Source: a phage
Assembly: GCA_011911785.1 (NCBI GenBank)
Contig: GCA_011911785.1_4084.1
Length of the DNA stretch: 64,000 nucleotides
Direction: 5' to 3' (one strand)
This document shows, piece by piece, positions 24,023-42,810 of the stretch; positions within the stretch are counted from its first letter, which is position 1; the number at the start of each line of letters is the position of its first letter. The position numbers and the translations under genes are program-made. The notes under the pieces were generated by a model. That model had not been told where the DNA came from. It worked only from the letters and a program-made list of their open reading frames with translations, and searched no databases.

Positions 24023-24023
24023 T

Positions 24024-26939: not shown

Positions 26940-27206
26940 ATGAATATTATATACTTTGCAACGCGTGAACTAGCTCGGATTGCAGCACGCCAGGACGGGG
27001 CGACGTTTAAAGATATGGGTGTACAATCGGAACGTGGTAAACGTTGGGCCGTAGTAAAGCAAAGTACAGCCCGATCAATTCAGTACTGGTTAGCGGCGTT
27101 AAAAAGTCCTGATAGTGTATCGCGTCGAGTAGTAGAAATAAAGCACGACCGCAAGGGCAACCGTGTTACTGTGTACAGTACTAAAAAGATTGCAGTACTT
27201 GAATAA
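26940..27206 (+). CDS. Hypothetical small early protein (88 aa); paralog of 38093-38488
   Basis: Shared FYATRE..FKDMG..HDRKGNRVTVYS. Confidence 0.55.
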   Translation: MNIIYFATRELARIAARQDGATFKDMGVQSERGKRWAVVKQSTARSIQYWLAALKSPDSVSRRVVEIKHDRKGNRVTVYSTKKIAVLE

Positions 27207-27211
27207 AAGTA

Positions 27212-27240
27212 CTTGCATACTAAGTTTAAAAGCGTATAAT
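27212..27240 (+). promoter_or_regulatory. Type-B early promoter CTTGCA-17-TATAAT; 5' stem-loop at 27253-27271
   Basis: Read directly. Confidence 0.6.
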
Positions 27241-27292
27241 ACTTTATATCAGGTGGGGAATACTTCCCCACTACAATGAAGAGGATTTTAAA

Positions 27293-27523
27293 ATGGCTAT
27301 CATGTATATGACCGAAGTTAAAACCGTAAAAGATACTACCACTAATAAAACTACTTACTTACAGCGGGTATGCGGTGTATGGCAACGTATTAGTAAAGCA
27401 AAGTACTTTAAATTAACATCATATGCTAATCGTTCGGATTCATTCAGTACTGAAATAAAAGGTAATAAATTACACCAATACGGCACTTATTATTATTATA
27501 GCCTGGACGCGATTGCAGTCTAA
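27293..27523 (+). CDS. Hypothetical small early protein (76 aa)
   Basis: RBS GAGGA; promoter cassette. Confidence 0.55.
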   Translation: MAIMYMTEVKTVKDTTTNKTTYLQRVCGVWQRISKAKYFKLTSYANRSDSFSTEIKGNKLHQYGTYYYYSLDAIAV

Positions 27524-27807
27524 GCAGTTTACAAATCTTTACAATTGCCGGTATTGACTTATTTTGTCAGTACTGGCATAATGTATCTATTGAAACGAAC
27601 AATTTGGCCCACGGGGTGCGGGAGTGTATCTATAGAAAAAGTAGTTTAGTACAGTTACAATTGTGCACCCGGTGGGTTAGCTGTTGTCATGGGGTATATT
27701 ATACCAGTACTTGATAATGCTGTCAATACTTTTTTTTACTATTCAGTACTGAAAACTATTTTTAAAAAGTACTTGCAAACTATGTTTAAAGGCGTATAAT
27801 GTTTTAC

Positions 27808-27883
27808 ATCAGGACGGGGAACGAAATAAGTAACTCCCCGTTAAGTAGCCCAGGAGTAAGGCATACGAAAAACTCCCCTGATA
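27808..27883 (+). other. Conserved ~76-nt structured leader element between tandem promoters (candidate small RNA or 5' leader)
   Basis: Second copy at 36895-36970; internal hairpin ACGGGGA..TCCCCGT; outer ATCAGG/CCTGAT; no start codon inside. Confidence 0.35.
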
Positions 27884-27889
27884 AAATAG

Positions 27890-27917
27890 TTTGACAATTG
27901 TTTTTAAAAGCGTATAA
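27890..27917 (+). promoter_or_regulatory. Early promoter TTGACA-16-TATAAT; 5' stem-loop at 27930-27953
   Basis: Read directly. Confidence 0.6.
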
Positions 27918-27973
27918 TACTTTACATCGAGGCGGGGGAATGATTCTCCCGCCTATAACCAGGAGTAAGCATC

Positions 27974-28207
27974 ATGATCGAACAAATCAAAACTACTACA
28001 AGCCGGACTGGAACGAAAGTACATTGCATCGCTGATAACGAAAAAGGCGTACCCTATTGTGCTGTACACGTAAACACAGATGGCGACTATTGGTTAACTG
28101 TATATGGGAGTTATTCGTTTGCTCGACCTGCTCATAGTAAGATCCTGGACGTAGTGAAGCCTACCGGAAAGGATATCACGGTAGAAAAATATTTTACTAA
28201 GCACTAA
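27974..28207 (+). CDS. Hypothetical small early protein (77 aa)
   Basis: RBS AGGAG. Confidence 0.55.
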   Translation: MIEQIKTTTSRTGTKVHCIADNEKGVPYCAVHVNTDGDYWLTVYGSYSFARPAHSKILDVVKPTGKDITVEKYFTKH

Positions 28208-28295
28208 AAAGTACTTGCATACTAAGTTTAAACGAGTATAATACTTTATATCGAGGCGGGGGAATGGTTCCCCTGCATTTACAGAGGATTATCTA

Positions 28296-28583
28296 ATGAG
28301 CAAAGTAATTGACTATAAAGTGTTAACCAAATCATTTTCTATCAGCCAGTGCACCGATGGTTATTGGCTTTATGATGAAACACGCGGCATGAATTTAGCT
28401 ATGCGGGAGAAAACTGCTGAGGCGGCGTATGTGCAAGCCCTGGAATACTACCAGAAACGTTTAAAGGAAGTAGAAGAGGATTATAAAAGCCTCAAAGAGA
28501 AAGTAGATAATTTCGTCGGTCAATTCGTTGACGATGACGAGGAAGACGGGTACTACTGCAACCGCTGCGGATCTTACAATTAA
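28296..28583 (+). CDS. Hypothetical small early protein (95 aa)
   Basis: RBS GAGGA; C-terminal CNRCG. Confidence 0.55.
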   Translation: MSKVIDYKVLTKSFSISQCTDGYWLYDETRGMNLAMREKTAEAAYVQALEYYQKRLKEVEEDYKSLKEKVDNFVGQFVDDDEEDGYYCNRCGSYN

Positions 28584-28600
28584 GTACTGAGGATTATCTA

Positions 28601-28804
28601 ATGAGTGATTTAATCGACCGTATCAAAGAGCTTGAAGAAAAAGAATTGCAGTTAATCGGCTTACAAAATAAAATCTTTCATGATTTGGGGAGTTTTATCA
28701 ATGCCTGGGATAGTGGCGATCCTGCTGCGTTACCTGCTAACCGCGAGGCGATGATCAATGATGTGCGTGGTGTCTTTGAGTATGTTTTAAAGCAATTAAA
28801 TTAA
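28601..28804 (+). CDS. Hypothetical small early protein (67 aa)
   Basis: Same RBS context GAGGATTATCTAATGAG as upstream gene. Confidence 0.55.
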   Translation: MSDLIDRIKELEEKELQLIGLQNKIFHDLGSFINAWDSGDPAALPANREAMINDVRGVFEYVLKQLN

Positions 28805-28811
28805 AAAAGTA

Positions 28812-28840
28812 CTTGCAATTAGTTTTCAGTACTGTATAAT
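28812..28840 (+). promoter_or_regulatory. Type-B early promoter CTTGCA-17-TGTATAAT; 5' stem-loop at 28854-28871
   Basis: Read directly. Confidence 0.6.
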
Positions 28841-28890
28841 AGTTTACATCAAGGGGAGAAATGGTTCTCCCTGGTAATGAGGAAAATAAA

Positions 28891-29112
28891 ATGGCTAATA
28901 TCACTACTCTTTCCCAACTTGAAGCACTGGTTAAATCTATGCGGGAACATGCCGACAATATCGGCGTAAAAGATCCAGCCGTTTGCTTCTGCGACGAATT
29001 GAATGATGATACATTGGTAATAGCAGAAGTCCAGGACGTTTCTAACTATTCATCGCGTTACACTGGCGGCGTAGCAAATAAAGGTGACTTCTGTTTATAC
29101 CTTACAAAATAA
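28891..29112 (+). CDS. Hypothetical small early protein (73 aa)
   Basis: Track start 28861 lies inside the leader hairpin; RBS GAGGA. Confidence 0.55.
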   Translation: MANITTLSQLEALVKSMREHADNIGVKDPAVCFCDELNDDTLVIAEVQDVSNYSSRYTGGVANKGDFCLYLTK

Positions 29113-29116
29113 CAAC

Positions 29117-29146
29117 GAGGGGATCAATTGATCCCCTTTCTTTTTT
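29117..29146 (+). terminator. Intrinsic terminator GGGGATC-aatt-GATCCCC + T-run
   Basis: Read directly. Confidence 0.75.
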
Positions 29147-29230
29147 CAGTACTGAATCATTTAATAGACGGATCTATGCACCCGGTGGGTTAGAGACTGT
29201 TTCGTCTTTATGTAGTAATTATACAGTACT
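29147..29230. repeat. ~80-bp repeat element (copy 3)
   Basis: Aligns with 25567-25646 and 25786-25868. Confidence 0.5.
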
Positions 29231-29357
29231 GGATGCAGTTGTCAAGAACTATTTTTCAAATACTTTTATATTAATGTACTATACAATAGTTTTTAAACGC
29301 GTATAATGTTTTACATCTAGTCGGGAATACTCCCTAGTACTAACAAAGGATATACAA

Positions 29358-29657
29358 ATGAAAACTGCAATCATCGCCCTGGCTTTATCTGTTTCCTCTT
29401 TCGCTGTTAATGCGTCGTTAGATGTACCTGGTGATAAATTCATTCAGTGCACCGTAGCAATGACCGATGAAAGTACTGGCGAGATTGTTTTAAAGGATCT
29501 GGAATTACAGCCAGAAGCATTTAAAAACGGGCCGTTCCATGAAGAAGACGAAAACGGTAGCACAACAATTTATTATGATGCAAAGAAAAAACGCGGTTCG
29601 GTCACTGTTATGGATACTGAGAAAGTAACGCATACAGGCGTTATTAACTGCCTATAA
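29358..29657 (+). CDS. Small secreted protein with signal peptide (99 aa)
   Basis: N-terminus MKTAIIALALSVSSFAVNA. Confidence 0.55.
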   Translation: MKTAIIALALSVSSFAVNASLDVPGDKFIQCTVAMTDESTGEIVLKDLELQPEAFKNGPFHEEDENGSTTIYYDAKKKRGSVTVMDTEKVTHTGVINCL

Positions 29658-29677
29658 TACATCAGTACTGAATCACT

Positions 29678-29705
29678 AGCCCACTATAAGCAGTGGGCTT
29701 TTTTG
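29678..29705 (+). terminator. Intrinsic terminator AGCCCACT-ataagc-AGTGGGCT + T-run
   Basis: Read directly; same module at 30408. Confidence 0.75.
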
Positions 29706-29752
29706 TAGTATCGTAGTACTGGAATACTTTGAAAATAGTTTTAAAAAAGTAG

Positions 29753-29780
29753 TTGACATTACCGCAAAAAGGCGTAGAAT
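29753..29780 (+). promoter_or_regulatory. Early promoter TTGACA-16-TAGAAT with ~120-nt leader
   Basis: Leader is a diverged copy of the 27808-type element. Confidence 0.5.
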
Positions 29781-29903
29781 GTATTACATCAAGACGGGGA
29801 ACACTAAGTAGACCGCCAGTAAGTCGAACGAAAAACTGGACACGTCGAGAAAACTTTGATACACTAACTAACGTAAACTAAACTTTAATTGAGGAATTAC
29901 ATA

Positions 29904-30386
29904 ATGGCTAACGTAAAATCATTCATCAAAGCACTGGTAGCAAATGAAACTAACGTAGCGGCAGAGATCCTGGCCGAACTGGATAGCGATACCATGAAAG
30001 CAGTACGCAACAATTTTAACATTGCGTACAGCGAAGCGAAAGAACTGCAAGCTAATAAAGCGGCAGCACTTGAAGCTGAGAAGGCAGCACGCGAAGCTGA
30101 ATTGCAGAAAACGATTGAAGATATTAACGCCGCCGTCGCTGGGCTTGATCTGGAAGTAGTTACCGAAATGGCACGTAAAGCCCTGGCAGCGAAATACGGG
30201 GAAGACAAGCCAGAAGTAAAAGCTAAAAAATGGATTCAGGAACGCGTGACGGTAGTACTGGATAACGGCGAGGAATACACTGTACCAGTACGCGGTAACT
30301 GCATTGCGGTAGTACTGGATGCTATCAAAGAAAGCGGATTGACTCGCGAGGAATGGATCGAAGCTCATCGCAAAGTTGAAGCATAA
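29904..30386 (+). CDS. Hypothetical Ala/Lys/Glu-rich protein (160 aa)
   Basis: RBS GAGGA; track start 29889 rejected. Confidence 0.55.
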   Translation: MANVKSFIKALVANETNVAAEILAELDSDTMKAVRNNFNIAYSEAKELQANKAAALEAEKAAREAELQKTIEDINAAVAGLDLEVVTEMARKALAAKYGEDKPEVKAKKWIQERVTVVLDNGEEYTVPVRGNCIAVVLDAIKESGLTREEWIEAHRKVEA

Positions 30387-30407
30387 CAATTAAAGTACTG
30401 AATCACT

Positions 30408-30435
30408 AGCCCACCTTAAACAGTGGGCTTTTTTG
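30408..30435 (+). terminator. Intrinsic terminator AGCCCAC..GTGGGCT + T-run
   Basis: Read directly. Confidence 0.7.
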
Positions 30436-30661
30436 TGTCTATCGTTTACCAGGCCAGCAGCACCGCCTAGAATCGATTCTAACGCATTAAACTGATTATC
30501 TGATGCATCGCCCTAGCTGGTGGCGTTAAGGTCGTTAGAATGCGATTGAGGACGTTTAAAGTATTTTGCAAAAAGTAATAAAAAGTACTTGCACGATTAA
30601 GAGATTAGCGTATAATTAATTTCATCAAGGCGAGACACCTTAACTAACTGAGGATATAAAG

Positions 30662-30814
30662 ATGAATACTTATGAACTGGATTGTTTCACTTTACAAGTA
30701 ATGTCAGTATGCAGCAAGAAAGATTGGTCATCAAAGGAATTTAAAGCAGTTATCGCGTGTGCAAAACACGGCAAGACTATCAATGAAACGGCATCAATCA
30801 TTGATAAACTTTAA
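30662..30814 (+). CDS. Hypothetical small protein (50 aa), not in ORF track
   Basis: Promoter CTTGCA-17-TATAAT upstream; RBS GAGGA; hand-translated. Confidence 0.4.
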   Translation: MNTYELDCFTLQVMSVCSKKDWSSKEFKAVIACAKHGKTINETASIIDKL

Positions 30815-30885
30815 AAAATAGTTTGACAATAGTTTTAAGTACTGACATAATACATACATCAACTACTGAATAGGAATTAAAAAAA

Positions 30886-31113
30886 ATGGCTATCGTAATC
30901 ACTCGCGTAACTGGTACTACTGGCAATTCTTCTACTGTTGCTGTAATTACTAACAAGAAAGGTGCGGAACTACATTTTGCAATGTATAACTGGTCAGTTG
31001 ATGAGTTTGGTCAGTACGCTAGTGTAGAATACATTGAAACCTATCAAGTGCCGTCGATTAGTTTAACTGATTTGGGCGTTGAGCGTATCCTTTGCCTGGA
31101 TGAATTAAATTAA
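30886..31113 (+). CDS. Hypothetical small early protein (75 aa)
   Basis: Promoter TTGACA-17-CATAAT upstream. Confidence 0.55.
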   Translation: MAIVITRVTGTTGNSSTVAVITNKKGAELHFAMYNWSVDEFGQYASVEYIETYQVPSISLTDLGVERILCLDELN

Positions 31114-31198
31114 AAAAGTACTTGCAAAGTAAAACGAATAAAGTATAATACATTACATCAAGGGGAGAAATGGTTCTCCCCACTAAGAGGAAACGAAA

Positions 31199-31342
31199 AT
31201 GAAAACTTGTCAATGTGGTAAAAAATCTATTACTGGTTTAAAGCGGGGCGTTGCTCTTTGTCAGTATCACTATAATGCTCAAGTATGGGGTAAAGAGTGG
31301 GCCGACCAGGTTGAAGCAGTAAAGAAAGCAAAAAGTAAGTAA
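31199..31342 (+). CDS. Small Cys-rich protein (47 aa), not in ORF track
   Basis: Promoter + GGGGAGAA hairpin + RBS GAGGAAA; CQCG..CQYH. Confidence 0.4.
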   Translation: MKTCQCGKKSITGLKRGVALCQYHYNAQVWGKEWADQVEAVKKAKSK

Positions 31343-31433
31343 AATTATTATCACAGTACTATTGACATAGATTGATAGTACTGGCATAATAGATTTTATC
31401 AAGACAACACATATTAATTTAAGGAATACTAAA

Positions 31434-31646
31434 ATGGCTATCATTATTAAAAACAAAGTTAACAAGACTATCGTTAAACTGGCAGAAGTGAAAGAAGGTT
31501 ATAAAGTATCTTGGGAGGGTTTTTATAGGATGTTCACAGATATAGACGATGCAATCAAGTACTACACTGATACGGTTGCTGACTTTGTTCGTTCTGATGT
31601 AGTAATGGCAGTTGCACAACATAAAGCATCGAAAGAAAGTAAGTAA
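31434..31646 (+). CDS. Hypothetical small early protein (70 aa)
   Basis: Upstream cassette 31345-31433 duplicated at 31647-31737. Confidence 0.55.
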   Translation: MAIIIKNKVNKTIVKLAEVKEGYKVSWEGFYRMFTDIDDAIKYYTDTVADFVRSDVVMAVAQHKASKESK

Positions 31647-31737
31647 AAATATTATCACAGTACTATTGACATAGTTTGATAGTACTGGCATAATAGATTT
31701 TATCAAGACAACACATATTAATTTAAGGAATACTAAA

Positions 31738-32061
31738 ATGGCTAAAACTATCATTAACACCGTATCCCTGGCTGCAATCCGTGCAATCAATGTTGACGGT
31801 AAACGTTGGACTGATTCATATGGCAATACTTATCATTCTTGTCATGTAAGCGTTGAACTGGATAACGGTGTGAATGATCTGGCGGTTGAATCATTTACTT
31901 ATGGCTATGAAGATGCATATCAACAAACGGCGTTATCTCTCTTAAAGGAATCAGTAGATGGGCTTGATACTGTTGAAACCTCCCTTAATCGTTTGTGCAA
32001 TGATTTGTCTATCCCGTTGCATTGTACTGTACAGAATGTTAAACGCAAAAAAGATCTTTAA
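31738..32061 (+). CDS. Hypothetical small early protein (107 aa); paralog of 37670-37993
   Basis: Shared RWTDSxGNTYHSC..FTYGY. Confidence 0.55.
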   Translation: MAKTIINTVSLAAIRAINVDGKRWTDSYGNTYHSCHVSVELDNGVNDLAVESFTYGYEDAYQQTALSLLKESVDGLDTVETSLNRLCNDLSIPLHCTVQNVKRKKDL

Positions 32062-32141
32062 TTAGCTTTACTTTATGCAGATACTTTGATATAGTGTCTG
32101 CATAGGGGAAAGAAATTAAATTAACTTAAGAGGATAGTATA

Positions 32142-32411
32142 ATGAAAAATATCAGTACTTTAATCGATGCAGGTACGCATGTTCGTCGGTCTATGGTTGC
32201 AACCAGTACTACAAAACAAGTACCAAGCGGTTATCTTGTATTTGTACACGATGGAAAACTCCTGGAACGTTCAATCAATTTTGATGTTAAGAACAATTGT
32301 CGTTTTATTATCTTTAAGCGTGAACAATATAAAATTGATTTGCCAGCGAAGCCCATTAGCGGGGCGTACAACGTGCAATCATTGTTTGAGCGTCAACCAT
32401 ACACCTATTAA
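32142..32411 (+). CDS. Hypothetical small early protein (89 aa)
   Basis: RBS AAGAGGA; inverted repeat TGCAGATACT/AGTGTCTGCA upstream. Confidence 0.5.
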   Translation: MKNISTLIDAGTHVRRSMVATSTTKQVPSGYLVFVHDGKLLERSINFDVKNNCRFIIFKREQYKIDLPAKPISGAYNVQSLFERQPYTY

Positions 32412-32462
32412 TCAAAACATCGTTAGCGGTCGATTTAGGCCGCTAATATTGAGGATAATACC

Positions 32463-32633
32463 ATGAACGTTAATCAAGTACTGAATGAAGTTGAAAGCAT
32501 CATTAAACCTATGCAGCGTAGCGATGCTATTCCTACACCGGAAGAATGCAGACTATACGAACAATACAGCGTAGAACAAGCCCAGGCGATGGCCCGTATT
32601 CGTCCGGTTGCTAGTACTGATAAGGCGGTGTAA
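32463..32633 (+). CDS. Hypothetical small protein (56 aa), not in ORF track
   Basis: RBS GAGGA; coupled to next gene (TAATATG). Confidence 0.4.
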   Translation: MNVNQVLNEVESIIKPMQRSDAIPTPEECRLYEQYSVEQAQAMARIRPVASTDKAV

Positions 32634-32634
32634 T

Positions 32635-32844
32635 ATGCTTACTGTACAGGATAAGATCGACATCTTAAAGGTTAATATGTATGTGATTGATGCCGTACCT
32701 GGTAAAGTATTTGCATACGATGATTCTAATCGTAGTCCTTTCTATTGTAGTCATGTAGTTGGATACGTGCCGTTGGCGTATGTTATCGAAAGAGTGGTTG
32801 ATGCAGCATACAATCATTTTTTAGAAAATAATACTTGCAATTAG
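32635..32844 (+). CDS. Hypothetical small early protein (69 aa)
   Basis: Track start 32608 rejected. Confidence 0.5.
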   Translation: MLTVQDKIDILKVNMYVIDAVPGKVFAYDDSNRSPFYCSHVVGYVPLAYVIERVVDAAYNHFLENNTCN

Positions 32845-32913
32845 TTTTCAGTACTGTATAATTGTTTACATAGAGGGGGGAAATGGTTCTCCCCTGATAC
32901 TAGGAGAATCAAA

Positions 32914-36713: not shown

Positions 36714-36727
36714 AAATAATTGAAAAA

Positions 36728-36760: not shown

Positions 36761-36894
36761 ATACGCATAGAAACAAATCAGCCCACAGGGTGCATAAATG
36801 TATCTATTATATGCTGGTGGACGTATTATCTAGTACTGAAAACTATTATAAAAAAGTACTTGCATTGTACTTAGAATCAAGTATAATGTTTTAC

Positions 36895-36970
36895 ATCAGG
36901 ACGGGGAATGAAACAAGTAACCCCGTTAAGTAGTCCAGGAGTAAGACATAAGAAAACCTCCCCTGATAAA
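36895..36970 (+). other. Conserved ~76-nt structured leader element (copy 2)
   Basis: About 85% identical to 27808-27883; lies between promoter at 36858-36887 and promoter at 36976. Confidence 0.35.
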
Positions 36971-36975
36971 ATAGT

Positions 36976-37003
36976 TTGACAATAGAAAGTAAACGAGTAT
37001 AAT
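36976..37003 (+). promoter_or_regulatory. Early promoter TTGACA-16-TATAAT
   Basis: Read directly. Confidence 0.6.
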
Positions 37004-37035
37004 ACTTACATCAACCACTGATAAGGAAACATAAA

Positions 37036-37311
37036 ATGCGGATTCTACTGACAGCTAACGAAATCGAACAAGTACTGACTACTAACCTGCAAGACTGGAA
37101 ACGTGAAGCAGATATCCAGGCGGTTCAATGGCTTAACGATAAGTTAACGCCGGATGACTTAAGCAAGATTGTAGATCCTCAATTCTATGAAGATATTCAC
37201 GACACCGCGTTAAGCGTCGAGGATGTACTTGATAAGCACTACATTGATATTGATTTGCAGGTTTACGGTCGTAAAAACTTTATCACTATTCACGACATTT
37301 ACAATAATTAA
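37036..37311 (+). CDS. Hypothetical small early protein (91 aa)
   Basis: RBS AAGGAAA. Confidence 0.55.
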   Translation: MRILLTANEIEQVLTTNLQDWKREADIQAVQWLNDKLTPDDLSKIVDPQFYEDIHDTALSVEDVLDKHYIDIDLQVYGRKNFITIHDIYNN

Positions 37312-37314
37312 GTA

Positions 37315-37342
37315 TTGACAAAGTATCTTAGTACTGTATAAT
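37315..37342 (+). promoter_or_regulatory. Early promoter TTGACA-16-TGTATAAT; 5' stem-loop at 37357-37375; cassette duplicated at 37573-37640
   Basis: Read directly. Confidence 0.6.
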
Positions 37343-37398
37343 AGTTTACATCAAGTGAGGGGAATGGTTCCCCTCCTAACTAAAAGAGAGAAATAAAA

Positions 37399-37581
37399 AT
37401 GGCTAAGTGCACTATCTGTAAGAAAGAAATCGTATTAGTTCCAAGTGCCCGTGAACGTGCCGCTCGGTTCGGTGGCAAAGCGTCAGACTATACAAAAATG
37501 TTTACTACCCATGCAGATTGCCAGGTAGCAAAACGTTCACAAGAAAGCGTAGAATTAATGCGTAAACTTTCCAGAAAATAA
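37399..37581 (+). CDS. Small Cys-containing protein (60 aa)
   Basis: CTICKK..HADC; start ATGGCT. Confidence 0.5.
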   Translation: MAKCTICKKEIVLVPSARERAARFGGKASDYTKMFTTHADCQVAKRSQESVELMRKLSRK

Positions 37582-37669
37582 GTATTGACAAAGTATCTTA
37601 GTACTGTATAATAGTTTACATCGAGTGAGGGGAAACGGTTCCCCTCCTAACAAAGAGAGAGAAATAAAA

Positions 37670-37993
37670 ATGGCTATGATCCTCACCCAGAAAGTAGAAC
37701 TGAAAATTGTAACCTCCTTTGACATTAAAGTTAATCGGTGGACTGATTCACACGGCAATACTTACCACTCTTGCTACGTGTCTGCTTTGATTGGTGATCG
37801 CTGGGAGGATTTAGGACATGAAACCTTTACTTACGGTTACGGCACACAAGGCGAATACACAGGCTTGGAGATCATTAAAGAAACCGTTATAGGTTTCAAC
37901 CCGAAAGAAAAAGTTATTCATCAAATAGAAAAAGAGATCAACAAAGAAATAACAGTTCGATACTACGATGTAAAACGTAAGAAAGACATGTAA
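37670..37993 (+). CDS. Hypothetical small early protein (107 aa); paralog of 31738-32061
   Basis: Track start 37625 rejected. Confidence 0.55.
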   Translation: MAMILTQKVELKIVTSFDIKVNRWTDSHGNTYHSCYVSALIGDRWEDLGHETFTYGYGTQGEYTGLEIIKETVIGFNPKEKVIHQIEKEINKEITVRYYDVKRKKDM

Positions 37994-38015
37994 TAGAATC
38001 CATTTAAAGTACTAT

Positions 38016-38044
38016 TTGACATTGCCCAGATAGTACTTTATAAT
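38016..38044 (+). promoter_or_regulatory. Early promoter TTGACA-17-TATAAT
   Basis: Degenerate copy precedes paralog gene at 26940. Confidence 0.55.
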
Positions 38045-38092
38045 AGACTCTAGCTTGTAGTACTAATTAACTTAACTAATAGGATGTATACC

Positions 38093-38488
38093 ATGATTAC
38101 TAAATTCTACGCTACCCGTGAAGCTGCCCGTATTGTTGCACGCGAGGAAGGAGCAGCATTTAAAGACATGGGCACGACCGCACCGAAAGGCCAACGCTGG
38201 GCCGTACAGTTCAAAGAAATCTCTGATATTGTGCATTCACCTGAGCCAGTACTAACAGCAGCAGAACTAAAACGAGCGGATATGCTGGCGGCAGTACTTA
38301 ACGCACAAGATGAGTTTATCGCTGGTTCTGATATCAAAGTACAGGTAAATGCTAATGCATGGACTCACGCGGATCACCTGGCTAACCTGAAGCGTCCAAG
38401 TGAACTGGTTCGCAACCAAAAAGAGATCCGTCATGATCGTAAGGGTAATCGTGTAACAGTATACAGTAAACGCCGCCAGGTTATCTAA
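38093..38488 (+). CDS. Hypothetical early protein (131 aa); paralog of 26940-27206
   Basis: RBS AGGA 8 nt upstream. Confidence 0.55.
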   Translation: MITKFYATREAARIVAREEGAAFKDMGTTAPKGQRWAVQFKEISDIVHSPEPVLTAAELKRADMLAAVLNAQDEFIAGSDIKVQVNANAWTHADHLANLKRPSELVRNQKEIRHDRKGNRVTVYSKRRQVI

Positions 38489-38510
38489 TAACTTGCAGTA
38501 CTAACAACAC

Positions 38511-38535
38511 GGCGGGATCAGTTCCCGCCTTTTTT
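38511..38535 (+). terminator. Intrinsic terminator GGCGGGA-tcagt-TCCCGCC + TTTTTT
   Basis: Read directly. Confidence 0.8.
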
Positions 38536-38550
38536 ATAGGATAAACTAAA

Positions 38551-38805
38551 ATGATTAAGGTTCAACTATCAAAAGATAATATCTTGCGGGTACACTATAA
38601 AGCACCACAGAGAATCATCACAAAGGCCGTACAGCTTGCTAATGAGTTTATTAATGGTAATCTATTGCCCAGGAAGTTAAGCAACGGCAAACTGCGTGTA
38701 ATCGATGTAGACACTAACAACAGAATAGTAATCGAGAATACAGGAAAGATAAACCTATATGAACACCAACAATATAATAAGAAAATAAAACTAATATCAC
38801 GTTGA
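38551..38805 (+). CDS. Hypothetical small early protein (84 aa)
   Basis: RBS AGGA. Confidence 0.5.
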   Translation: MIKVQLSKDNILRVHYKAPQRIITKAVQLANEFINGNLLPRKLSNGKLRVIDVDTNNRIVIENTGKINLYEHQQYNKKIKLISR

Positions 38806-38858
38806 CAGTACTCAATTGTTTTAGTACTATGTATCTATACCAACACGGGAGAAACAAA

Positions 38859-39077
38859 ATGAAATTATCTAAAATCGAAAAGAAAACTATTGATGAAGCA
38901 GTTAAGCACGGTTATACCTTTCGTAATGATTCACATTTTACCAATTTTCAACAAGGGTATCGTACTATTAAAAAACTTATTGACAAAGGTTTATTAGTTG
39001 AAGTCAATAACGGTAACGGTATCGAGTATCAACCAACACAAGACGCATTATCTTTAAAGAAATATGCAATTATCTAA
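38859..39077 (+). CDS. Hypothetical small early protein (72 aa)
   Basis: Promoter TTGACA-17-TACTAT duplicated at 39080; track start 38802 rejected. Confidence 0.5.
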   Translation: MKLSKIEKKTIDEAVKHGYTFRNDSHFTNFQQGYRTIKKLIDKGLLVEVNNGNGIEYQPTQDALSLKKYAII

Positions 39078-39142
39078 TTGACAGTACTCAATTGTTTTAG
39101 TACTATATGTACATACCAACACGGAATAACTGGAGAAACAAA

Positions 39143-39370
39143 ATGATTAATATCTTAGAACGCATCAAAGAAACTACTACGCTGGTGGATCTACTCAATG
39201 TACTGACTTTTAAAGTAACTCGGTTTAGTACTCCTGAATTTATCAACCTCATTGATAGTAAAGGTGAATACCGCATCACTATTGAAAATGGTCGTGCTAA
39301 TGTATTCAGTACTAAATCAGGTAAAACCGCAATTCATTCAGTAATTGCAAATAAAACTGTTGCAATCTAA
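39143..39370 (+). CDS. Hypothetical small early protein (75 aa)
   Basis: RBS GGAG; track start 39107 rejected. Confidence 0.5.
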   Translation: MINILERIKETTTLVDLLNVLTFKVTRFSTPEFINLIDSKGEYRITIENGRANVFSTKSGKTAIHSVIANKTVAI

Positions 39371-39439
39371 TTAGTACTAACATATAATAGTCACATCAAG
39401 GCAGGGAATACCTCCCTGCTATCTTAAAGAGTAAATGCA

Positions 39440-40024
39440 ATGCGTAATTATACTAAATTCATCCGTACACTGGCAGAAATGGAAACTAATAAAGAGATCC
39501 TTACAGCTTGTCGGTTGGCTGGTCTGGAGATCATCGGGGCCGGATCATCCCGTATCGTATTCGCTTTAAATGATCGGTTAGTGATTAAGGTCGCTAATTG
39601 TGACGCTGGCGTAGAACAAAATGAAACAGAATGTAAGGTATGGAATTTTTTAGATTATGACCGCCCTCACCTTAAACAGTACTTTGCTAAGGTGCATATG
39701 CATTTAAGCGATCCTGATAATATGTTTATTGTTATGGATCGTTTGAGTACTGCAAGCAAAGGCAGTGTAAAGCACGTTAACGCTTGCAATGAATTAAAGT
39801 ACAATGTCAAACGTAACACTATTGAACGCCAACACCATTTCGCTGATGCACTACAACACGTTGATGATACCTTATCAACACTAACGATAAGAGATATCAG
39901 AAAGCAGAACATAGGCCAAGATCGCAATGGCCTGATTAAAGTACTTGATTACGGTTTAACCCGCAATATCTGGAATCAGTACTATAAACAACGCGACGTA
40001 AAAGCCGTAACTATAACACGATAA
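39440..40024 (+). CDS. Putative protein kinase-like protein (194 aa)
   Basis: Gly-loop IGAGSSRIV, Lys in VIKV, catalytic-loop-like RDIRKQN, DYG in place of DFG. Confidence 0.5.
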   Translation: MRNYTKFIRTLAEMETNKEILTACRLAGLEIIGAGSSRIVFALNDRLVIKVANCDAGVEQNETECKVWNFLDYDRPHLKQYFAKVHMHLSDPDNMFIVMDRLSTASKGSVKHVNACNELKYNVKRNTIERQHHFADALQHVDDTLSTLTIRDIRKQNIGQDRNGLIKVLDYGLTRNIWNQYYKQRDVKAVTITR

Positions 40025-40038
40025 AAAAGATTAAAAAA

Positions 40039-40071
40039 GGGATTGACTCCAGTCAGTCCCTTTGCTATTAT
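40039..40071 (+). promoter_or_regulatory. Type-A terminator/promoter cassette
   Basis: GGGATTGACTCCAGTCAGTCCC hairpin; -10 TATTAT; motif variant at 40097. Confidence 0.6.
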
Positions 40072-40248
40072 ATAGTCATTGAGAGATAACTCACTGACCC
40101 ATAGGGTGCATAAGTGTATCTATAATATAAGTATTGTCAGTACTGAAAACTATTTTTAAAAAGTACTTGCATTGTACTTAGATTCAAGTATAATGTTTTA
40201 CATAGAGAGGGGGAAATAGTTCTCCCTCAAAGAATAAGGAATAAAATC

Positions 40249-40470
40249 ATGACTACAATGACTTGCATTTACGCTTCCAATCTTCTGAATGATGCGGCCT
40301 TTAATGTTGATTCAGAATATCAATGTTATCGGGATGAAAATAAAAAAGTTTTTGTAGTTGATAATAATGGTTTCCATATTGAATTACAATCCGGCTTCAC
40401 TGGTGTTGATGGTAAATCAGTATGGGGCGTTCAGGATGATAAAGGCACATATCATTTTAAACGTAATTAA
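40249..40470 (+). CDS. Hypothetical small early protein (73 aa)
   Basis: Promoter + hairpin + RBS AAGGAAT. Confidence 0.55.
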   Translation: MTTMTCIYASNLLNDAAFNVDSEYQCYRDENKKVFVVDNNGFHIELQSGFTGVDGKSVWGVQDDKGTYHFKRN

Positions 40471-40553
40471 GTATTGACAAAGTATATCAGTACTGTATAA
40501 TAGTTTACATCAAGGGGAGAATAGTTCTCCCCGATACTAAAAGGAATAAAATC

Positions 40554-40961
40554 ATGACTACTACTAATCAAGCTCGGTCCATCACCAACGATAAAAATCA
40601 TGCTGCAATGGTCGCTGGTTACATTGAAGCTATGCAATTCAGTACTGTACACAATGAGAACGGCGACTACCTGGAAGATTATGAATTATCAGAGCAAGCC
40701 CATCAAGCGGCAGTGATTGCATGTTCTCGTTTCCTTGAGAAGTTTAGTAATGAAATGGAAGCAGTACAAAAACACCATAATCCTGATTATACTTATAGTC
40801 ATGCAGGTCATGATCTCTTTCTTACCCGCGAAGGTCACGGTACTGGCTTTTGGGATCGTGATATCGGTCACTATGACGATGTATTCACTAAGTACTGCGA
40901 AGAAATCAACGTTTGCGATCCCTATGTAGGCGATGATAATCTAATCTATATGGGCGAATAA
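40554..40961 (+). CDS. Hypothetical His-rich early protein (135 aa)
   Basis: HAGHDLFLTREGHGTGFWDRDIGH; promoter cassette. Confidence 0.55.
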   Translation: MTTTNQARSITNDKNHAAMVAGYIEAMQFSTVHNENGDYLEDYELSEQAHQAAVIACSRFLEKFSNEMEAVQKHHNPDYTYSHAGHDLFLTREGHGTGFWDRDIGHYDDVFTKYCEEINVCDPYVGDDNLIYMGE

Positions 40962-41048
40962 AAGTATTTGACAAAGCATATCAGTACTGTATAATAGTTT
41001 ACATCAAGGGGAGAATAGTTCTCCCCACTACTAAAAGGAAACAAAATT

Positions 41049-41321
41049 ATGTCTAGCTACTCCGCTACTATGATCATCAAAGATATGAACGGTAATCCTA
41101 CTTCCGCTGGTGGATCATTTGGAAACATTAACTTAGATGGTCGGTTATCAATGGAATCAGCCATCAATGCAGCGAAAGAAGTTTTTAAGAATGAATGTAC
41201 TGTAAGCAAGCTGGATTATATGGGCTTCGCTATCGAGAAAACTAAACGTTTTGTGGACTACAAAAATCCACTGATGATTGATACTAACCTGAAAGCTAAC
41301 GAAGTGGAATACTTATTATGA
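41049..41321 (+). CDS. Hypothetical small early protein (90 aa)
   Basis: Promoter cassette; RBS AAGGAAA. Confidence 0.55.
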   Translation: MSSYSATMIIKDMNGNPTSAGGSFGNINLDGRLSMESAINAAKEVFKNECTVSKLDYMGFAIEKTKRFVDYKNPLMIDTNLKANEVEYLL

Positions 41322-41509
41322 CAGTTGATGAAGTTAAAAAAGTACTGGCAGTACTACGCTATCATAATCATTGTAAGGTTAAGAATGATCCTGATTATGT
41401 TGATTCATCCCTGGAGGAAGACACCTTAAACGCGATAAGCCATATGCAAACATTAGCAAAGCGTATGACCGAAAAGAATAGGCCGGACTATATCGGAAAT
41501 AAAATTTAA
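41318..41509 (+). CDS. Hypothetical small early protein (63 aa)
   Basis: ATGA overlap. Confidence 0.5.
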   Translation: MTVDEVKKVLAVLRYHNHCKVKNDPDYVDSSLEEDTLNAISHMQTLAKRMTEKNRPDYIGNKI

Positions 41510-41596
41510 AAAGTACTTGCATTGTAGTTAGATTAACGTATAATGTTTTATATCGAGAGGGGGAAATGGTTTCCCCTCAAGTCCAGGAGATACACC

Positions 41597-41863
41597 ATGA
41601 ACACTATCGAAATCACTATCAATGCTCACGTATACGACAACGTAGTACTGCAAACTACTATGACCGCTAACGATACCAGTACTTTGCGGAATACTGTTAT
41701 AAGTGCTGTATGTGCCGCTATCGGTGATGTATCCCTGGAAAACGCAGAACACATCAATAACGGTTTCACTATGTGCAAACGTGATAACGCAAAACATATC
41801 ATCGTAGAAGGTTACGGCGGTGTAGAATATAATCTTTATATGAAAAAAGTACTTGCATCGTAA
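41597..41863 (+). CDS. Hypothetical small early protein (88 aa)
   Basis: Track start 41543 lies in promoter/leader; RBS AGGAG. Confidence 0.55.
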   Translation: MNTIEITINAHVYDNVVLQTTMTANDTSTLRNTVISAVCAAIGDVSLENAEHINNGFTMCKRDNAKHIIVEGYGGVEYNLYMKKVLAS

Positions 41864-41928
41864 GTAAAACAAAGTATAATGTTTTGCATAGGGGGAGATA
41901 TCCTCCCCCACTAATAAGGAGTACTACG

Positions 41929-42153
41929 ATGGCTAATCATGATGAACTGATTCGGGAAGTAGCTAACCTGGCGGCAGAAAAGAAATCATTTGATTCTATC
42001 TATAACACCGCTCACCGTGATTCAGTACTGGCATGTAATCAGGATCAAAAAGATGAACTGATCGCAACCTATCATGAAGCGTGGAAGTATTACCGTCAAT
42101 GGGAGAAAGAAGAAAAAGCATCAACCATAAGAGGATTAAATAATCTAGTATAA
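41929..42153 (+). CDS. Hypothetical small early protein (74 aa)
   Basis: Track start 41884 rejected; RBS AAGGAG. Confidence 0.55.
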   Translation: MANHDELIREVANLAAEKKSFDSIYNTAHRDSVLACNQDQKDELIATYHEAWKYYRQWEKEEKASTIRGLNNLV

Positions 42154-42205
42154 CAATAAAAGGGGATGATAATATCCCCTTAATAATTTCTATAATAGGT
42201 TAACA

Positions 42206-42472
42206 ATGAAAAAGAAAACAACATATCGCTATAATAAAAATTATCAATCCGTTGTATTAGATCACTCTATGCTCCCGCTCGTTGTCCCTGCCGTTGGTGT
42301 AGTCTATCAATCCATATACTGGTCAAGGAAACAACAAAAGTACTTAAAAGGCCCAATAGCACGCTATGAGGGTAATGGTGTATGGTCCGATCCGTTACAT
42401 CCAATCACTACGCGTTATATTGAATATTTTCCTTATTGTGACTACATTGAAATACATCCTAAATTTAATTGA
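42206..42472 (+). CDS. Hypothetical small protein (88 aa); paralog of 42553-42810
   Basis: Shared ..GNG(V/E)W(S/F)DP.. Confidence 0.5.
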   Translation: MKKKTTYRYNKNYQSVVLDHSMLPLVVPAVGVVYQSIYWSRKQQKYLKGPIARYEGNGVWSDPLHPITTRYIEYFPYCDYIEIHPKFN

Positions 42473-42552
42473 TAGTATTGACAGTACTAACTGATAGTGT
42501 ATAATGTTTTGCATAGGGGGAATACTCCCCCAATATTAAAAGGGGAAACATC

Positions 42553-42810
42553 ATGGAACAATTCACACAATATCGGGTAAATCCTCAAGCTATGGCCTAC
42601 GTAGAAGACCATAAAACGTTACCAGTACTGCAACCAGTTAAAGGCCGTATCTATCGTGGCCTTGCATGGAATACGGCCCAGGATGGATATAAAACCGTTG
42701 CCGTGGGGATGTATTGCGGTAATGGTGAATGGTTTGATCCAAATAATCCGGTAGCTATTGACAGTACTGAAAAAATGAAATGGGCCGACTATATCGAGGA
42801 TATCTCATAA
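42553..42810 (+). CDS. Hypothetical small protein (85 aa); paralog of 42206-42472
   Basis: Promoter + hairpin; RBS AAGGGGAAA. Confidence 0.55.
   Translation: MEQFTQYRVNPQAMAYVEDHKTLPVLQPVKGRIYRGLAWNTAQDGYKTVAVGMYCGNGEWFDPNNPVAIDSTEKMKWADYIEDIS

What the first reader, a model, noticed from the sequence alone, without database searches (positions are those of the whole stretch)
26940..42810. Dispersed paralog pairs among the early small genes
26940/38093 share FYATRE..FKDMG..HDRKGNRVTVYS, 31738/37670 share RWTDSxGNTYHSC..FTYGY, and 42206/42553 share GNG(V/E)W(S/F)DP. This shows gene duplication also operates outside the large arrays.
Basis: seen in the sequence. Interest (0 to 1): 0.35.

Follow-up and report, generated by a model that had tools for sequence, protein, structure and literature searches.

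The report
Old paralog pairs among phage early genes
Three pairs of small early genes in the terminal-repeat region of an E. coli jumbo phage are truly related. All three are old, they arose in different ways, and one family always sits beside a ParE-like toxin gene, which hints at its function.

Summary
All three pairs are significant homologs (33-36% identity, BLASTP E 2e-20 to 7e-27, Smith-Waterman z 27-35 against shuffles), and each pair falls in a single PHROG of unknown function. The window is an Asteriusvirus (G17/121Q-like) jumbo coliphage. The six genes lie in the stretch syntenic with the ~21 kb direct terminal repeat, a run of small gene cassettes, most preceded by a sigma-70 consensus promoter.

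The interpretation, that gene duplication operates here, is only partly supported. No pair is recent: third-codon identity is 32-37%, which is saturated.

- **Pair 1 (26940/38093):** fits a genus-level dispersed duplication, and the short copy later lost a ~45-aa linker.
- **Pair 2 (31738/37670):** a core copy plus an accessory copy found in about 27 of 37 genomes. The two are not sister sequences.
- **Pair 3 (42206/42553):** a core copy plus a cassette absent from all 50,697 deposited phage records. The cassette is 99-100% identical in a relative whose flanking DNA is only 80-93% identical, so it is exchanged horizontally.

New lead: family 1 sits immediately upstream of a ParE-like toxin-domain gene in all 14 RaK2-like jumbo-phage lineages examined. 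This suggests a toxin-antitoxin-like module, with the short copy as a solo extra partner.

Overall this is ordinary phage mosaicism plus one testable functional hypothesis.

The parts
24100..44600 (+). Approximate extent of the region syntenic with the ~21 kb direct terminal repeat of Asteriusvirus genomes. It is a run of small + strand genes, most with their own sigma-70 consensus promoter. All six paralogs lie inside it.
   Evidence: Boundaries are extrapolated from the synteny, not measured. The region is syntenic with vB_Ec-M-J, whose annotated DTR is 1-21,525 and holds all five orthologs. fEgEco12 has a 20,993-bp DTR confirmed by restriction digests (PMC13070987). Records that include both DTR copies show 4 places per family instead of 2.
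26940..27206 (+). Family 1 (phrog_8127), short copy, 88 aa. It keeps the conserved N-terminal ~40 aa and the C-terminal ~30 aa but lacks the ~45-aa linker. It has no ParE-like neighbour, so it is a solo copy.
   Evidence: The positional ortholog in EJP2 (EJP02_516) is 125 aa, has the linker, and has a near-identical C-terminus (SPDSVSRRVVEIKHDRKGNRVTVYS). dN/dS is 0.12-0.23.
38016..38044 (+). Perfect TTGACA-17-TATAAT promoter upstream of the long family 1 copy.
38093..38488 (+). Family 1 (phrog_8127), long copy, 131 aa. It lies immediately upstream of the ParE-like gene and is the putative antitoxin-like partner (inferred).
   Evidence: dN/dS is 0.14-0.26. The adjacency to a ParE-like gene holds in 14 of 14 lineages.
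38511..38529 (+). Intrinsic terminator-like hairpin (GGCGGGA-TCAGT-TCCCGCC followed by TTTTTT) between the long family 1 copy and the ParE-like gene. No consensus promoter follows it.
   Evidence: Terminators are annotated at the same position in G17 and GAP32.
38551..38805 (+). ParE-like toxin-domain protein, 84 aa (PF24732). It is the only copy in the window.
   Evidence: Pfam 42.6 bits against a cut-off of 24.4. The local HMM finds one copy in the window. It is 93-100% identical across Asteriusvirus and occurs in 71 phage records, all but one weak hit (27.5% identity, E 5e-3, in a 54-kb phage) being RaK2-like jumbo phages; one is annotated as a YafQ-like toxin.
31738..32061 (+). Family 2 (phrog_6246), copy A, 107 aa. 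It is accessory: present in about 27 of 37 Asteriusvirus records.
   Evidence: Promoter at 31666-31694. dN/dS is 0.27 against L010.
37670..37993 (+). Family 2 (phrog_6246), copy B, 107 aa. It is core: 36 of 37 Asteriusvirus records carry an ortholog at 93-99% identity (EJP2's one copy is only 39% identical), and it is strongly constrained.
   Evidence: dN/dS is 0.03-0.06. Perfect promoter at 37585-37612.
42154..42536 (+). Cassette replacing a 60-nt spacer of G17. It consists of a hairpin (42160-42181), gene 42206-42472, and a new consensus promoter (42478-42505) with a 5' UTR hairpin that serves 42553.
   Evidence: The stretch 42121-42520 is 99-100% identical in L002 while the flanks are 80-93% identical.
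42206..42472 (+). Family 3 (phrog_34861), upstream copy, 88 aa. It is accessory: absent from all deposited phage records and present in 8 metagenome or sequencing-run contigs, always in the same position.
42553..42810 (+). Family 3 (phrog_34861), core copy, 85 aa. It is present in all 37 Asteriusvirus records.
   Evidence: dN/dS is 0.08-0.23.
31336..31744 (+). A 109-bp direct repeat, 98% identical (31336-31444 and 31640-31744). It carries a promoter and brackets the gene 31434-31646, which G17 lacks. This is an example of cassette insertion between duplicated spacers, directly upstream of copy A.
   Evidence: The gene is present in vB_Ec-M-J as EcMJ_016.

Best explanation
The six genes are small early-type gene cassettes in the terminal-repeat region of an Asteriusvirus jumbo coliphage; five of the six have a consensus sigma-70 promoter in the upstream spacer (only 42206 has none detected). 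The three homolog pairs are real, old, and of different origin.

**Family 1**
- Family 1 is the invariable upstream neighbour of a ParE-like toxin-domain gene in RaK2-like jumbo phages. That is its ancestral, single-copy location.
- In the ancestor of Asteriusvirus it was duplicated to a second site about 11 kb away. In the main clade that extra copy then lost its ~45-aa linker.
- Inferred function: the long copy is an antitoxin-like partner of the ParE-like protein. Both are transcribed from the promoter at 38016, and an internal terminator keeps the toxin transcript in the minority. The short solo copy supplies extra or altered neutralising capacity.

**Family 2**
- Family 2 is a very widespread phage-only protein of unknown function.
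- Copy B is a strongly constrained core gene. Copy A is a divergent accessory homolog that is not B's sister.

**Family 3**
- Family 3 is a core gene plus a divergent accessory copy carried on a cassette that moves between co-circulating Asteriusviruses.

**General mechanism.** Gain, loss and exchange of single-gene cassettes occur by recombination in the highly similar promoter and terminator spacers.

**Shown versus inferred.** Shown: the homology, age, distribution, synteny and cassette mosaicism. Inferred: early expression, the toxin-antitoxin-like function, and the recombination mechanism.
For: **Homology and age**

**Identity of the phage and the terminal repeat**
- There are 14 perfect 12/12 sigma-70 consensus promoters on the + strand in 18 kb. 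The scan found 99 promoter-like sites against 62 expected.

**Family 1**
- The tree gives 69% bootstrap for a clade of Asteriusvirus site 1 plus site 2, 78% for EJP2 site 1 with the short copies, and 89% for RaK2, Hallingskeid and their relatives as a separate group.
- EJP2's site-1 protein is a long form whose C-terminus matches the short copy.
- Family 1 followed by a ParE-like gene, with a spacer of 40-108 nt, was found in 14 of 14 lineages. These are Asteriusvirus, Alcyoneusvirus, Mimasvirus, Eneladusvirus, Hallingskeid and Salmonella phage 7t3.
- A terminator lies between the two genes in the window, G17 and GAP32.
- The ParE-like gene is 93-100% conserved within the genus.

**Family 2**
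- The family comprises 1,236 clusters at 50% identity and has no plasmid hits.
- Copy B has an ortholog at 93-99% identity in 36 of 37 records (the divergent EJP2 has one copy only 39% identical), with dN/dS 0.03-0.06. Copy A is in about 27 of 37.
- An exclusive A+B clade gets 0.5% bootstrap.

**Family 3**

**Cassette turnover**
- A 98%-identical 109-bp repeat brackets gene 31434.
- Upstream spacers of unrelated genes are up to 96/100 alike, while the spacers of paralogs are not specially alike.
- Whole genes are present or absent between the window and L002 or G17.
Against: - The family 1 clade support is moderate (69%) and rests on about 100 alignment columns and neighbour-joining only.
- A 40-108 nt spacer containing a terminator is unusual for a type II toxin-antitoxin operon.
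- The adjacency could be inherited synteny within one related phage group. A 194-aa kinase-like gene is also found a few genes downstream in several of these phages (gene sizes).
- EJP2 has a family 1-like gene at site 2 with no ParE-like gene after it.
- For families 2 and 3, an ancient duplication with many losses cannot be told apart from acquisition of a xenolog.
- Early timing of expression is not measured.
Confidence: 0.6

Rival explanations
1. One reading: all three pairs are products of gene duplication acting within this genome, by the same process that built the large tandem arrays but in dispersed form.
For: All pairs are significant homologs. Pair 3 is tandem, with the copies 81 nt apart. 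Pair 1 is phylogenetically consistent with a genus-level duplication. The window does hold large tandem arrays of paralogs at 9.6-20.5 kb on the minus strand and at 45-51 kb.
Against: Synonymous sites are saturated. Pairs 1 and 2 predate the diversification of the genus. A and B are not sister sequences, with 0.5% bootstrap. 42206 is an indel relative to all deposited relatives, carries foreign flanks consisting of a hairpin and a different promoter, and is 99-100% identical across diverged backgrounds. No co-duplicated flanking DNA is detectable beyond the generic promoter family.
Confidence: 0.2
2. For pairs 2 and 3, the accessory copies (31738 and 42206) are xenologs. They diverged in other phage lineages and were imported by recombination at the conserved spacers, so the pairs are not duplications in this lineage at all.
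For: Copy A is closer to metagenomic homologs P0004 and P0005 (52% and 48%) and to EJP2's single copy (46%) than to B (36-38%). Copy A has a patchy distribution. 42206 is an outgroup to 42553 plus the EJP2 copy, and its cassette is exchanged between backgrounds. Family 2 is shared with Phapecoctavirus, Certrevirus and other coliphage groups that could act as donors.
Against: No donor lineage with a close 42206-type or A-type gene outside Asteriusvirus-like contigs was found. 42206 is only ever seen next to its homolog, which favours a local origin. The NJ tree still puts A, B, EJP2 and two metagenomic sequences in one larger group.
Confidence: 0.35
3. The adjacency of family 1 to the ParE-like gene is inherited gene order in one phage group and has no functional meaning. 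Family 1 is an unrelated early protein, and its duplication has nothing to do with the toxin-domain gene.
For: All 14 lineages belong to the RaK2-like jumbo group, which shares other local synteny. Family 1 shows no fold or sequence similarity to antitoxins. A terminator separates the genes. EJP2 breaks the pairing.
Against: Everything else around the pair turns over. The upstream neighbour differs in nearly every genus, and 1-6 genes are inserted downstream. Yet the pair stays contiguous down to about 30% identity. The order, partner first and RelE/ParE-fold protein second, is the common antitoxin-toxin order (Table in PMC11980606).
Confidence: 0.4
4. The similarities are chance or compositional artefacts of AT-rich short ORFs.
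For: The proteins are short (85-131 aa) and the genome has 35-39% GC.
Against: z is 27-35 against shuffles, and no shuffle exceeded score 60 against the observed 150-199. Independent PHROG profile hits reach 1e-12 to 1e-57. The conserved motifs are shared with hundreds of homologs.
Confidence: 0.01

Closest known systems
Paralogous ORF sets described in RaK2-like jumbo phages (for example Pectobacterium phage CBB: 22 ORFs sharing homology, RpoD-like promoters in front of short presumed early ORFs, a 22.5-kb terminal repeat; PMC5259590)
   Same: Same phage group and same genome compartment (terminal repeat and early region). The genes are likewise small hypothetical genes behind sigma-70-type promoters, and paralogy is attributed to duplication.
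   Different: These three specific families were not described there. Here the pairs are shown to differ in age and origin. One pair includes the partner of a ParE-like gene, and CBB_36/CBB_37 are the same module.
Type II toxin-antitoxin modules of the RelE/ParE superfamily (ParD-ParE, DinJ-YafQ, RelB-RelE)
   Same: A small RelE/ParE-superfamily-type protein (PF24732, 84 aa) is preceded by a small conserved partner gene in antitoxin-then-toxin order. The pairing is strictly conserved across genera. One ortholog is annotated as a YafQ-like toxin.
   Different: The partner (phrog_8127) resembles no known antitoxin family. The genes are separated by 40-108 nt and a terminator instead of overlapping. 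The module sits in a strictly lytic jumbo phage's terminal repeat, not on a plasmid or chromosome (no plasmid hits). Toxicity and neutralisation are untested.
Pre-early genes in the direct terminal repeat of phage T5 (own knowledge, not tested here)
   Same: A long direct terminal repeat is filled with small genes behind strong host-type promoters, so every gene in it is present twice per virion DNA.
   Different: No sequence relationship was found. The repeat is twice as long (~21 kb against ~10 kb). Two-step DNA transfer is not known for Asteriusvirus.
Moron or cassette mosaicism of phage genomes, and solo ('orphan') antitoxins or anti-toxin proteins such as T4 Dmd (own knowledge)
   Same: Single genes with their own promoter and terminator are gained, lost and swapped between relatives at conserved boundary sequences. 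An extra partner-type gene exists without a toxin neighbour.
   Different: These are a virulent phage's early genes, not prophage morons. No evidence yet shows that the solo copy acts on any toxin.
RNase H-like / ASKHA half-domain fold (for family 2 only)

Membership tests
Paralogs from duplication within the lineage | Statistically significant full-length sequence similarity between the two genes | tested here: met
   E 2e-20, 7e-27 and 3e-19, with z 27-35. This holds for all three pairs.
Paralogs from duplication within the lineage | The two copies are each other's closest relatives compared with homologs in other genomes (monophyly) | tested here: inconclusive
   Pair 1 is met with moderate support, 69% for the clade of both Asteriusvirus sites. 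Pair 2 is not met: 0.5% support, and A and B are each nearer to other sequences. Pair 3 is not met on identities: 42553 vs EJP2 is 54%, while 42206 is 35-36% to both. No tree was possible for pair 3 with so few members.
Paralogs from duplication within the lineage | Traces of co-duplicated flanking DNA or recent divergence | tested here: not met
   Third-codon identity is 32-37%. The upstream spacers of the pairs are not more alike than those of unrelated genes: score 30 for pair 1 against a median best score of 38.
PHROG families phrog_8127, phrog_6246 and phrog_34861 | Significant match of both members of each pair to the same profile | tested here: met
   E-values are 2e-27 and 2.5e-34 (phrog_8127), 3e-39 and 2e-36 (phrog_6246), and 2e-12 and 5e-57 (phrog_34861). 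All three families are of unknown function.
Type II toxin-antitoxin module (RelE/ParE type), for 38093 plus 38551 | Toxin gene belongs to the RelE/ParE superfamily | tested here: met
   PF24732 ParE_like scores 42.6 bits against a cut-off of 24.4. Orthologs in eleven other phages score 30.6-47.8 bits. This is profile membership only. PDB sequence search found nothing.
Type II toxin-antitoxin module (RelE/ParE type), for 38093 plus 38551 | Conserved bicistronic pairing with a small partner gene | tested here: met
   Family 1 lies immediately upstream in 14 of 14 jumbo-phage lineages, with spacers of 40-108 nt. No promoter was found in the window's spacer. A terminator lies between the genes, so co-transcription needs read-through.
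Type II toxin-antitoxin module (RelE/ParE type), for 38093 plus 38551 | Partner has a recognisable antitoxin or DNA-binding domain (RHH, Phd/YefM, HTH, AbrB) | tested here: not met
Type II toxin-antitoxin module (RelE/ParE type), for 38093 plus 38551 | Toxin inhibits growth and the partner neutralises it by direct binding | not testable with these tools
   This needs expression and binding experiments.
Terminal-repeat early genes (T5-type pre-early region) | Location inside the direct terminal repeat | tested here: met
   This rests on synteny only. All orthologs lie inside the annotated 21,525-bp DTR of vB_Ec-M-J. The copy number doubles in records that carry both repeats. The window itself gives no read-depth or end information.
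Terminal-repeat early genes (T5-type pre-early region) | Host sigma-70 promoters and early transcription | tested here: inconclusive
   Consensus promoters are strongly enriched, and four perfect or near-perfect ones lie directly upstream of four of the six genes. Timing of expression is not measurable here.
RNase H-like / ASKHA fold enzymes (family 2) | Fold match together with conserved catalytic acidic residues or phosphate-binding motifs | tested here: not met

The most novel reading that the evidence does not exclude
phrog_8127 (family 1) is a previously unrecognised antitoxin-type partner of a ParE-like toxin-domain protein. Together they form a core module, attenuated by an internal terminator, in the terminal repeat of all RaK2-like jumbo phages. 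The phage would use the toxin-domain protein as an early host-shutoff or anti-competitor effector. Asteriusviruses would keep a second, linker-less solo copy of the partner as an extra neutraliser or decoy. Separately, phrog_6246 (family 2) has at least 1,236 clusters, occurs only in phages, and has an invariant aromatic and basic surface on an RNase H/ASKHA-like half-domain. It could be a nucleic-acid- or nucleotide-binding early protein of unknown role, kept here in two diverged versions.
Probability: 0.3. Interest if true: 0.55.

Novelty: new member of a known kind. Interest (0 to 1): 0.27.

Why it matters
Paralogous small genes and cassette mosaicism are well known in jumbo phages (PMC5259590, PMC5348500).

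Two results add some value.
- **Different histories.** 'Paralog pair' here covers three different histories: a genus-level dispersed duplication followed by domain loss, a core copy plus a non-sister accessory copy, and a horizontally exchanged cassette. Paralog counts alone therefore overstate in-genome duplication.
- **A functional handle.** One of the many 'hypothetical' early families now has a testable function. It is locked to a ParE-like toxin-domain gene across at least four named genera (Asteriusvirus, Alcyoneusvirus, Mimasvirus, Eneladusvirus) plus two unclassified jumbo phages. That gives a simple experiment to learn what a conserved terminal-repeat gene pair does in therapeutic-candidate coliphages.

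Tried and rejected
**Searches that gave nothing useful**
- Pfam and NCBIfam scans of the six proteins gave only sub-threshold noise.
- PDB sequence searches with single proteins and with a 61-sequence family 2 profile gave nothing significant. The best hit was a non-significant match (E 0.66) to a phosphomevalonate kinase segment.
- The family 2 model searched against BFVD returned only uncharacterised phage proteins. The afdb50 library was not available.

**Tests of functional context**
- Ten longer proteins carry a family 2 domain fused to other sequence. Pfam and PHROGs recognised nothing in the extra parts, so they give no context clue.
- Plasmid searches found no hits for family 2 or for the ParE-like protein. 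A conjugative-plasmid anti-defence context was therefore dropped.
- I tested whether family 2 followed by family 1 (adjacent here, 37670 then 38093) is a conserved module. It is adjacent only in Asteriusvirus, including EJP2, and not in RaK2, Hallingskeid or 7t3, so I rejected it as a general module.
- An ASKHA phosphate-1-motif reading of 'DSYGNTYHS' was considered and dropped, because the Asp is not conserved across the family.

**Tests of duplication history**
- I tested whether the pair 1 promoters were co-duplicated. They are reciprocal best matches, but only marginally (score 30 against 29, 28 and 27) and below the typical best score between spacers. This is not usable evidence.

**Technical notes**
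- A first bootstrap run with Biopython's own routine timed out and was replaced by a faster script.
- The search for homologous proteins was insensitive for families 2 and 3, returning 6 hits and 1 hit.

Full report
**What the window is.** Megablast of 26-44 kb against deposited phages hits Asteriusvirus jumbo coliphages (BAU.Micro_ELP-22, CRJP21, fEgEco12, G17, 121Q and others) at about 89-94% identity in patches covering 32-78% of the query. Synteny with G17 and with vB_Ec-M-J places the finding in the direct terminal repeat. The vB_Ec-M-J record annotates a 21,525-bp repeat. I extrapolate the repeat to roughly 24.1-44.6 kb of the window. For fEgEco12 a 20,993-bp terminal repeat was confirmed by restriction digests (PMC13070987). 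Records that contain both repeat copies show each family at four places instead of two. The region is a string of small + strand genes. It holds 14 perfect TTGACA-N16/17-TATAAT promoters on the + strand in 18 kb, and 99 promoter-like sites against 62 expected. 'Early' is therefore a reasonable but unmeasured label. It matches what was proposed for the related phage CBB (PMC5259590).

**Checking the observation.** An all-versus-all BLASTP of all 348 ORFs of at least 40 aa and pairwise BLASTP confirm the three pairs.
- 26940 vs 38093: 34% identity, E 2e-20, with one 45-residue gap.
- 31738 vs 37670: 36% identity, no gaps, E 7e-27.
- 42206 vs 42553: 35% identity, E 3e-19.

Smith-Waterman scores lie 27-35 standard deviations above 2000 shuffles. 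Each pair hits a single PHROG of unknown function. No further + strand gene pair exists between 26 and 44 kb. The other local matches are ORFs read across repeated promoter spacers. HMMs built from each family find exactly two copies of each in all six frames of the 64-kb window. Orthologs show purifying selection (dN/dS 0.03-0.27), so these are real genes.

**Age.** Between paralogs the coding DNA is 47-50% identical and third-codon positions are 32-37% identical, which is saturated. None of the pairs is recent.

**Pair 1 (phrog_8127).**
- *Architecture.* The family has a conserved N-terminal ~40 residues (MITKFYATRExARxVAREEGxxFKDMG...RWAV), a variable helical linker, and a conserved C-terminal ~30 residues (P..V.R...DRKGNxVTVYSKRK).
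- *Distribution.* Both copies are present throughout Asteriusvirus. RaK2/K64-1, Hallingskeid, 7t3, GAP32 and fHe-Yen9-04 have one.
- *Tree.* A neighbour-joining tree on 103 columns puts the Asteriusvirus site-1 and site-2 genes in one clade (69%). RaK2-like and Hallingskeid sequences form a separate group (89%).
- *The EJP2 intermediate.* In the divergent Asteriusvirus EJP2, the positional ortholog of the short copy is a 125-aa protein. It has the linker, and its C-terminus is nearly identical to the short copy's. So the 88-aa form arose by an internal deletion of about 45 residues.

**Why pair 1 is the most informative pair.**
- *The neighbour.* The gene after the long copy (38551-38805) is a ParE-like toxin-domain protein (PF24732, 42.6 bits against a cut-off of 24.4).
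- *Conserved adjacency.* A family 1 gene lies immediately upstream of a ParE-like gene in all 14 lineages I examined.
  - Asteriusvirus: the window, G17, vB_Ec-M-J and a metagenomic relative.
  - Alcyoneusvirus: RaK2, KP13-7 and phiKp_21.
  - Mimasvirus: GAP32, CBB and XbC2.
  - Eneladusvirus: fHe-Yen9-04 and pEa_SNUABM_19.
  - Unclassified: Erwinia phage Hallingskeid and Salmonella phage 7t3.
- *Neighbourhood turnover.* The genes on either side vary between these lineages.
- *Terminator.* A terminator lies between the two genes in the window (38511-38529) and is annotated at the same spot in G17 and GAP32. No promoter follows it in the window.
- *ParE-like distribution.* The ParE-like gene occurs in 71 phage records, all but one weak hit (27.5% identity, E 5e-3, in the 54-kb phage MagusPhagus) being RaK2-like jumbo phages. 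It is 93-100% identical within Asteriusvirus and is annotated 'YafQ-like ribonuclease toxin' in phage Muenster. It is absent from plasmids.
- *The short copy.* It has no such neighbour, and the window has only one ParE-like gene.

My inference is that the long copy is an antitoxin-like partner of the ParE-like protein. The partner-first order is the usual one for this superfamily (PMC11980606). The internal terminator would keep the toxin message in the minority. The short copy would be a solo extra partner.

Several points weigh against this. Family 1 resembles no known antitoxin. Its model is mediocre (pLDDT 71, pTM 0.33) and has no structural neighbours. The spacing is atypical for a toxin-antitoxin operon. 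EJP2 has a family 1-like gene followed by an unrelated gene. All the lineages belong to one related phage group, so inherited synteny is a live alternative.

**Pair 2 (phrog_6246).**
- *Breadth.* The family is very large. A profile search finds 1,236 clusters at 50% identity. tblastn finds it in 207 phage records, including Phapecoctavirus (phi92 gp231), Certrevirus CR3 and Pectobacterium and Pseudomonas phages. There are no plasmid hits.
- *Core versus accessory.* Copy B has an ortholog at 93-99% identity in 36 of the 37 Asteriusvirus records, with dN/dS 0.03-0.06; EJP2's single copy is only 39% identical to B. Copy A is in about 27 of 37.
- *Relationship.* A and B are not each other's nearest relatives. 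A is 52% and 48% identical to two metagenomic proteins and 46% to EJP2's single copy, but 36-38% to B. An exclusive A+B clade appears in 0.5% of bootstraps.
- *Fusions.* Longer fused members gave no domain clue.

**Pair 3 (phrog_34861).**
- *Distribution.* The downstream copy is in all 37 Asteriusvirus records. The upstream copy has no ortholog in 50,697 phage records: every hit is to the downstream gene at 35-38% identity. It does occur in eight metagenome or sequencing-run contigs, always in the same position.
- *Structure of the insertion.* Relative to G17, a 383-nt segment replaces a 60-nt spacer. The segment consists of a hairpin, the gene, and a new consensus promoter with a 5' UTR hairpin.
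- *Horizontal exchange.* In contig L002 the cassette (42121-42520) is 99-100% identical to the window, while the flanking genes are 80-93% identical. So it moves between co-circulating relatives.
- *Branching order.* By identity, 42206 branches outside 42553 plus the EJP2 copy.

Either it is an old tandem duplicate lost almost everywhere, or it is an import. I cannot separate these.

**How the region evolves.**
- Spacers upstream of unrelated genes are far more alike than the spacers of the paralogs, up to 96/100.
- A 109-bp promoter-bearing repeat at 98% identity brackets the gene 31434-31646. G17 lacks this gene and vB_Ec-M-J has it.
- Whole genes come and go between close relatives.

This is the signature of single-gene cassettes exchanged by recombination at repeated spacers. 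That process can also place divergent homologs in one genome without any local duplication.

**Verdict.** The phenomenon is a familiar kind: paralogous ORFs and mosaic early regions are already reported for RaK2-like jumbo phages. The one new and testable lead is the invariant pairing of family 1 with a ParE-like gene.

Noticed in passing
window 38551-38805 (+), with the terminator at 38511-38529: An 84-aa ParE-like toxin-domain protein (PF24732) lies directly after the long family 1 copy. The same two-gene arrangement is present in 14 of 14 RaK2-like jumbo-phage lineages examined. This looks like an undescribed toxin-antitoxin-like module in the terminal repeat of a lytic phage.
   Followed up: yes
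window 33293-33330, 36725-36762, 40036-40073, 43116-43153 (+): There are four near-identical copies of a composite element, AAAGGGATTGACTCCGGTCAGTCCCTTT followed by GCTATTATAT. It is a 12-bp-stem hairpin whose stem contains a TTGACT -35 hexamer, with a TATTAT -10 hexamer 17 nt downstream. It appears to be an overlapping terminator and promoter unit.
   Followed up: no
window 31336-31444 and 31640-31744 (+): A 109-bp direct repeat at 98% identity carries a promoter and brackets the 70-aa gene 31434-31646. That gene is absent from G17 and present in vB_Ec-M-J. It looks like a fresh cassette insertion, or a substrate for cassette deletion.
   Followed up: partly
window 26-44 kb, most spacers, for example 42478-42552 and 42817-42880: Many spacers share the layout TTGACA-N16-TATAAT, then GTTTTGCATA, then a G5/C5 hairpin in the 5' UTR, then the ribosome-binding site. 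Read on either strand, these repeats create spurious 'paralogous' ORFs in an all-versus-all search, such as MFYIE(S/R)GN... or ...GKYSPPDIKYYTLLNLVCKYF.
   Followed up: partly
window 41543-41863 and 42900-43100 (+); also 27929-28204 and 34950-35384: Whole single-gene cassettes are present in the window but missing or replaced in close relatives (L002, G17). One example is a GNAT acetyltransferase (35025-35381) where G17 has two other genes.
   Followed up: partly
window 26619-26858 (+); L010 3654-3893 and 5693-5932: The window has one DUF7249 gene (PF23907). A related metagenomic Asteriusvirus contig has two, about 2 kb apart. This is another dispersed pair, present in relatives but not here.
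   Followed up: no
window 39440-40024 (+): A 194-aa protein has weak, sub-threshold protein-kinase-like Pfam hits (E 1e-3). A gene of the same length (585-591 nt) lies a few genes downstream of the ParE-like gene in G17, RaK2, KP13-7, Hallingskeid and 7t3.
   Followed up: no
window 9619-20499 (-), 20992-24221 (+), 45178-51738 (+), 58106-59488 (+): Large tandem paralog arrays flank the terminal-repeat region. They comprise nine 310-472-aa proteins on the minus strand (orthologs annotated BNR-repeat or 'GTPase regulator' in EJP2), two arrays of 60-90-aa proteins, and a triplet of ~150-aa proteins.
   Followed up: no
PDB chain 7xnd_B versus the family 2 profile: A non-significant match (E 0.66) to a phosphomevalonate kinase shows '...VSDIRRKTDI|RWFKETYG...'. 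Family 2's C-terminal motif is followed directly by its N-terminal motif, as if circularly permuted. This is probably chance.
   Followed up: no
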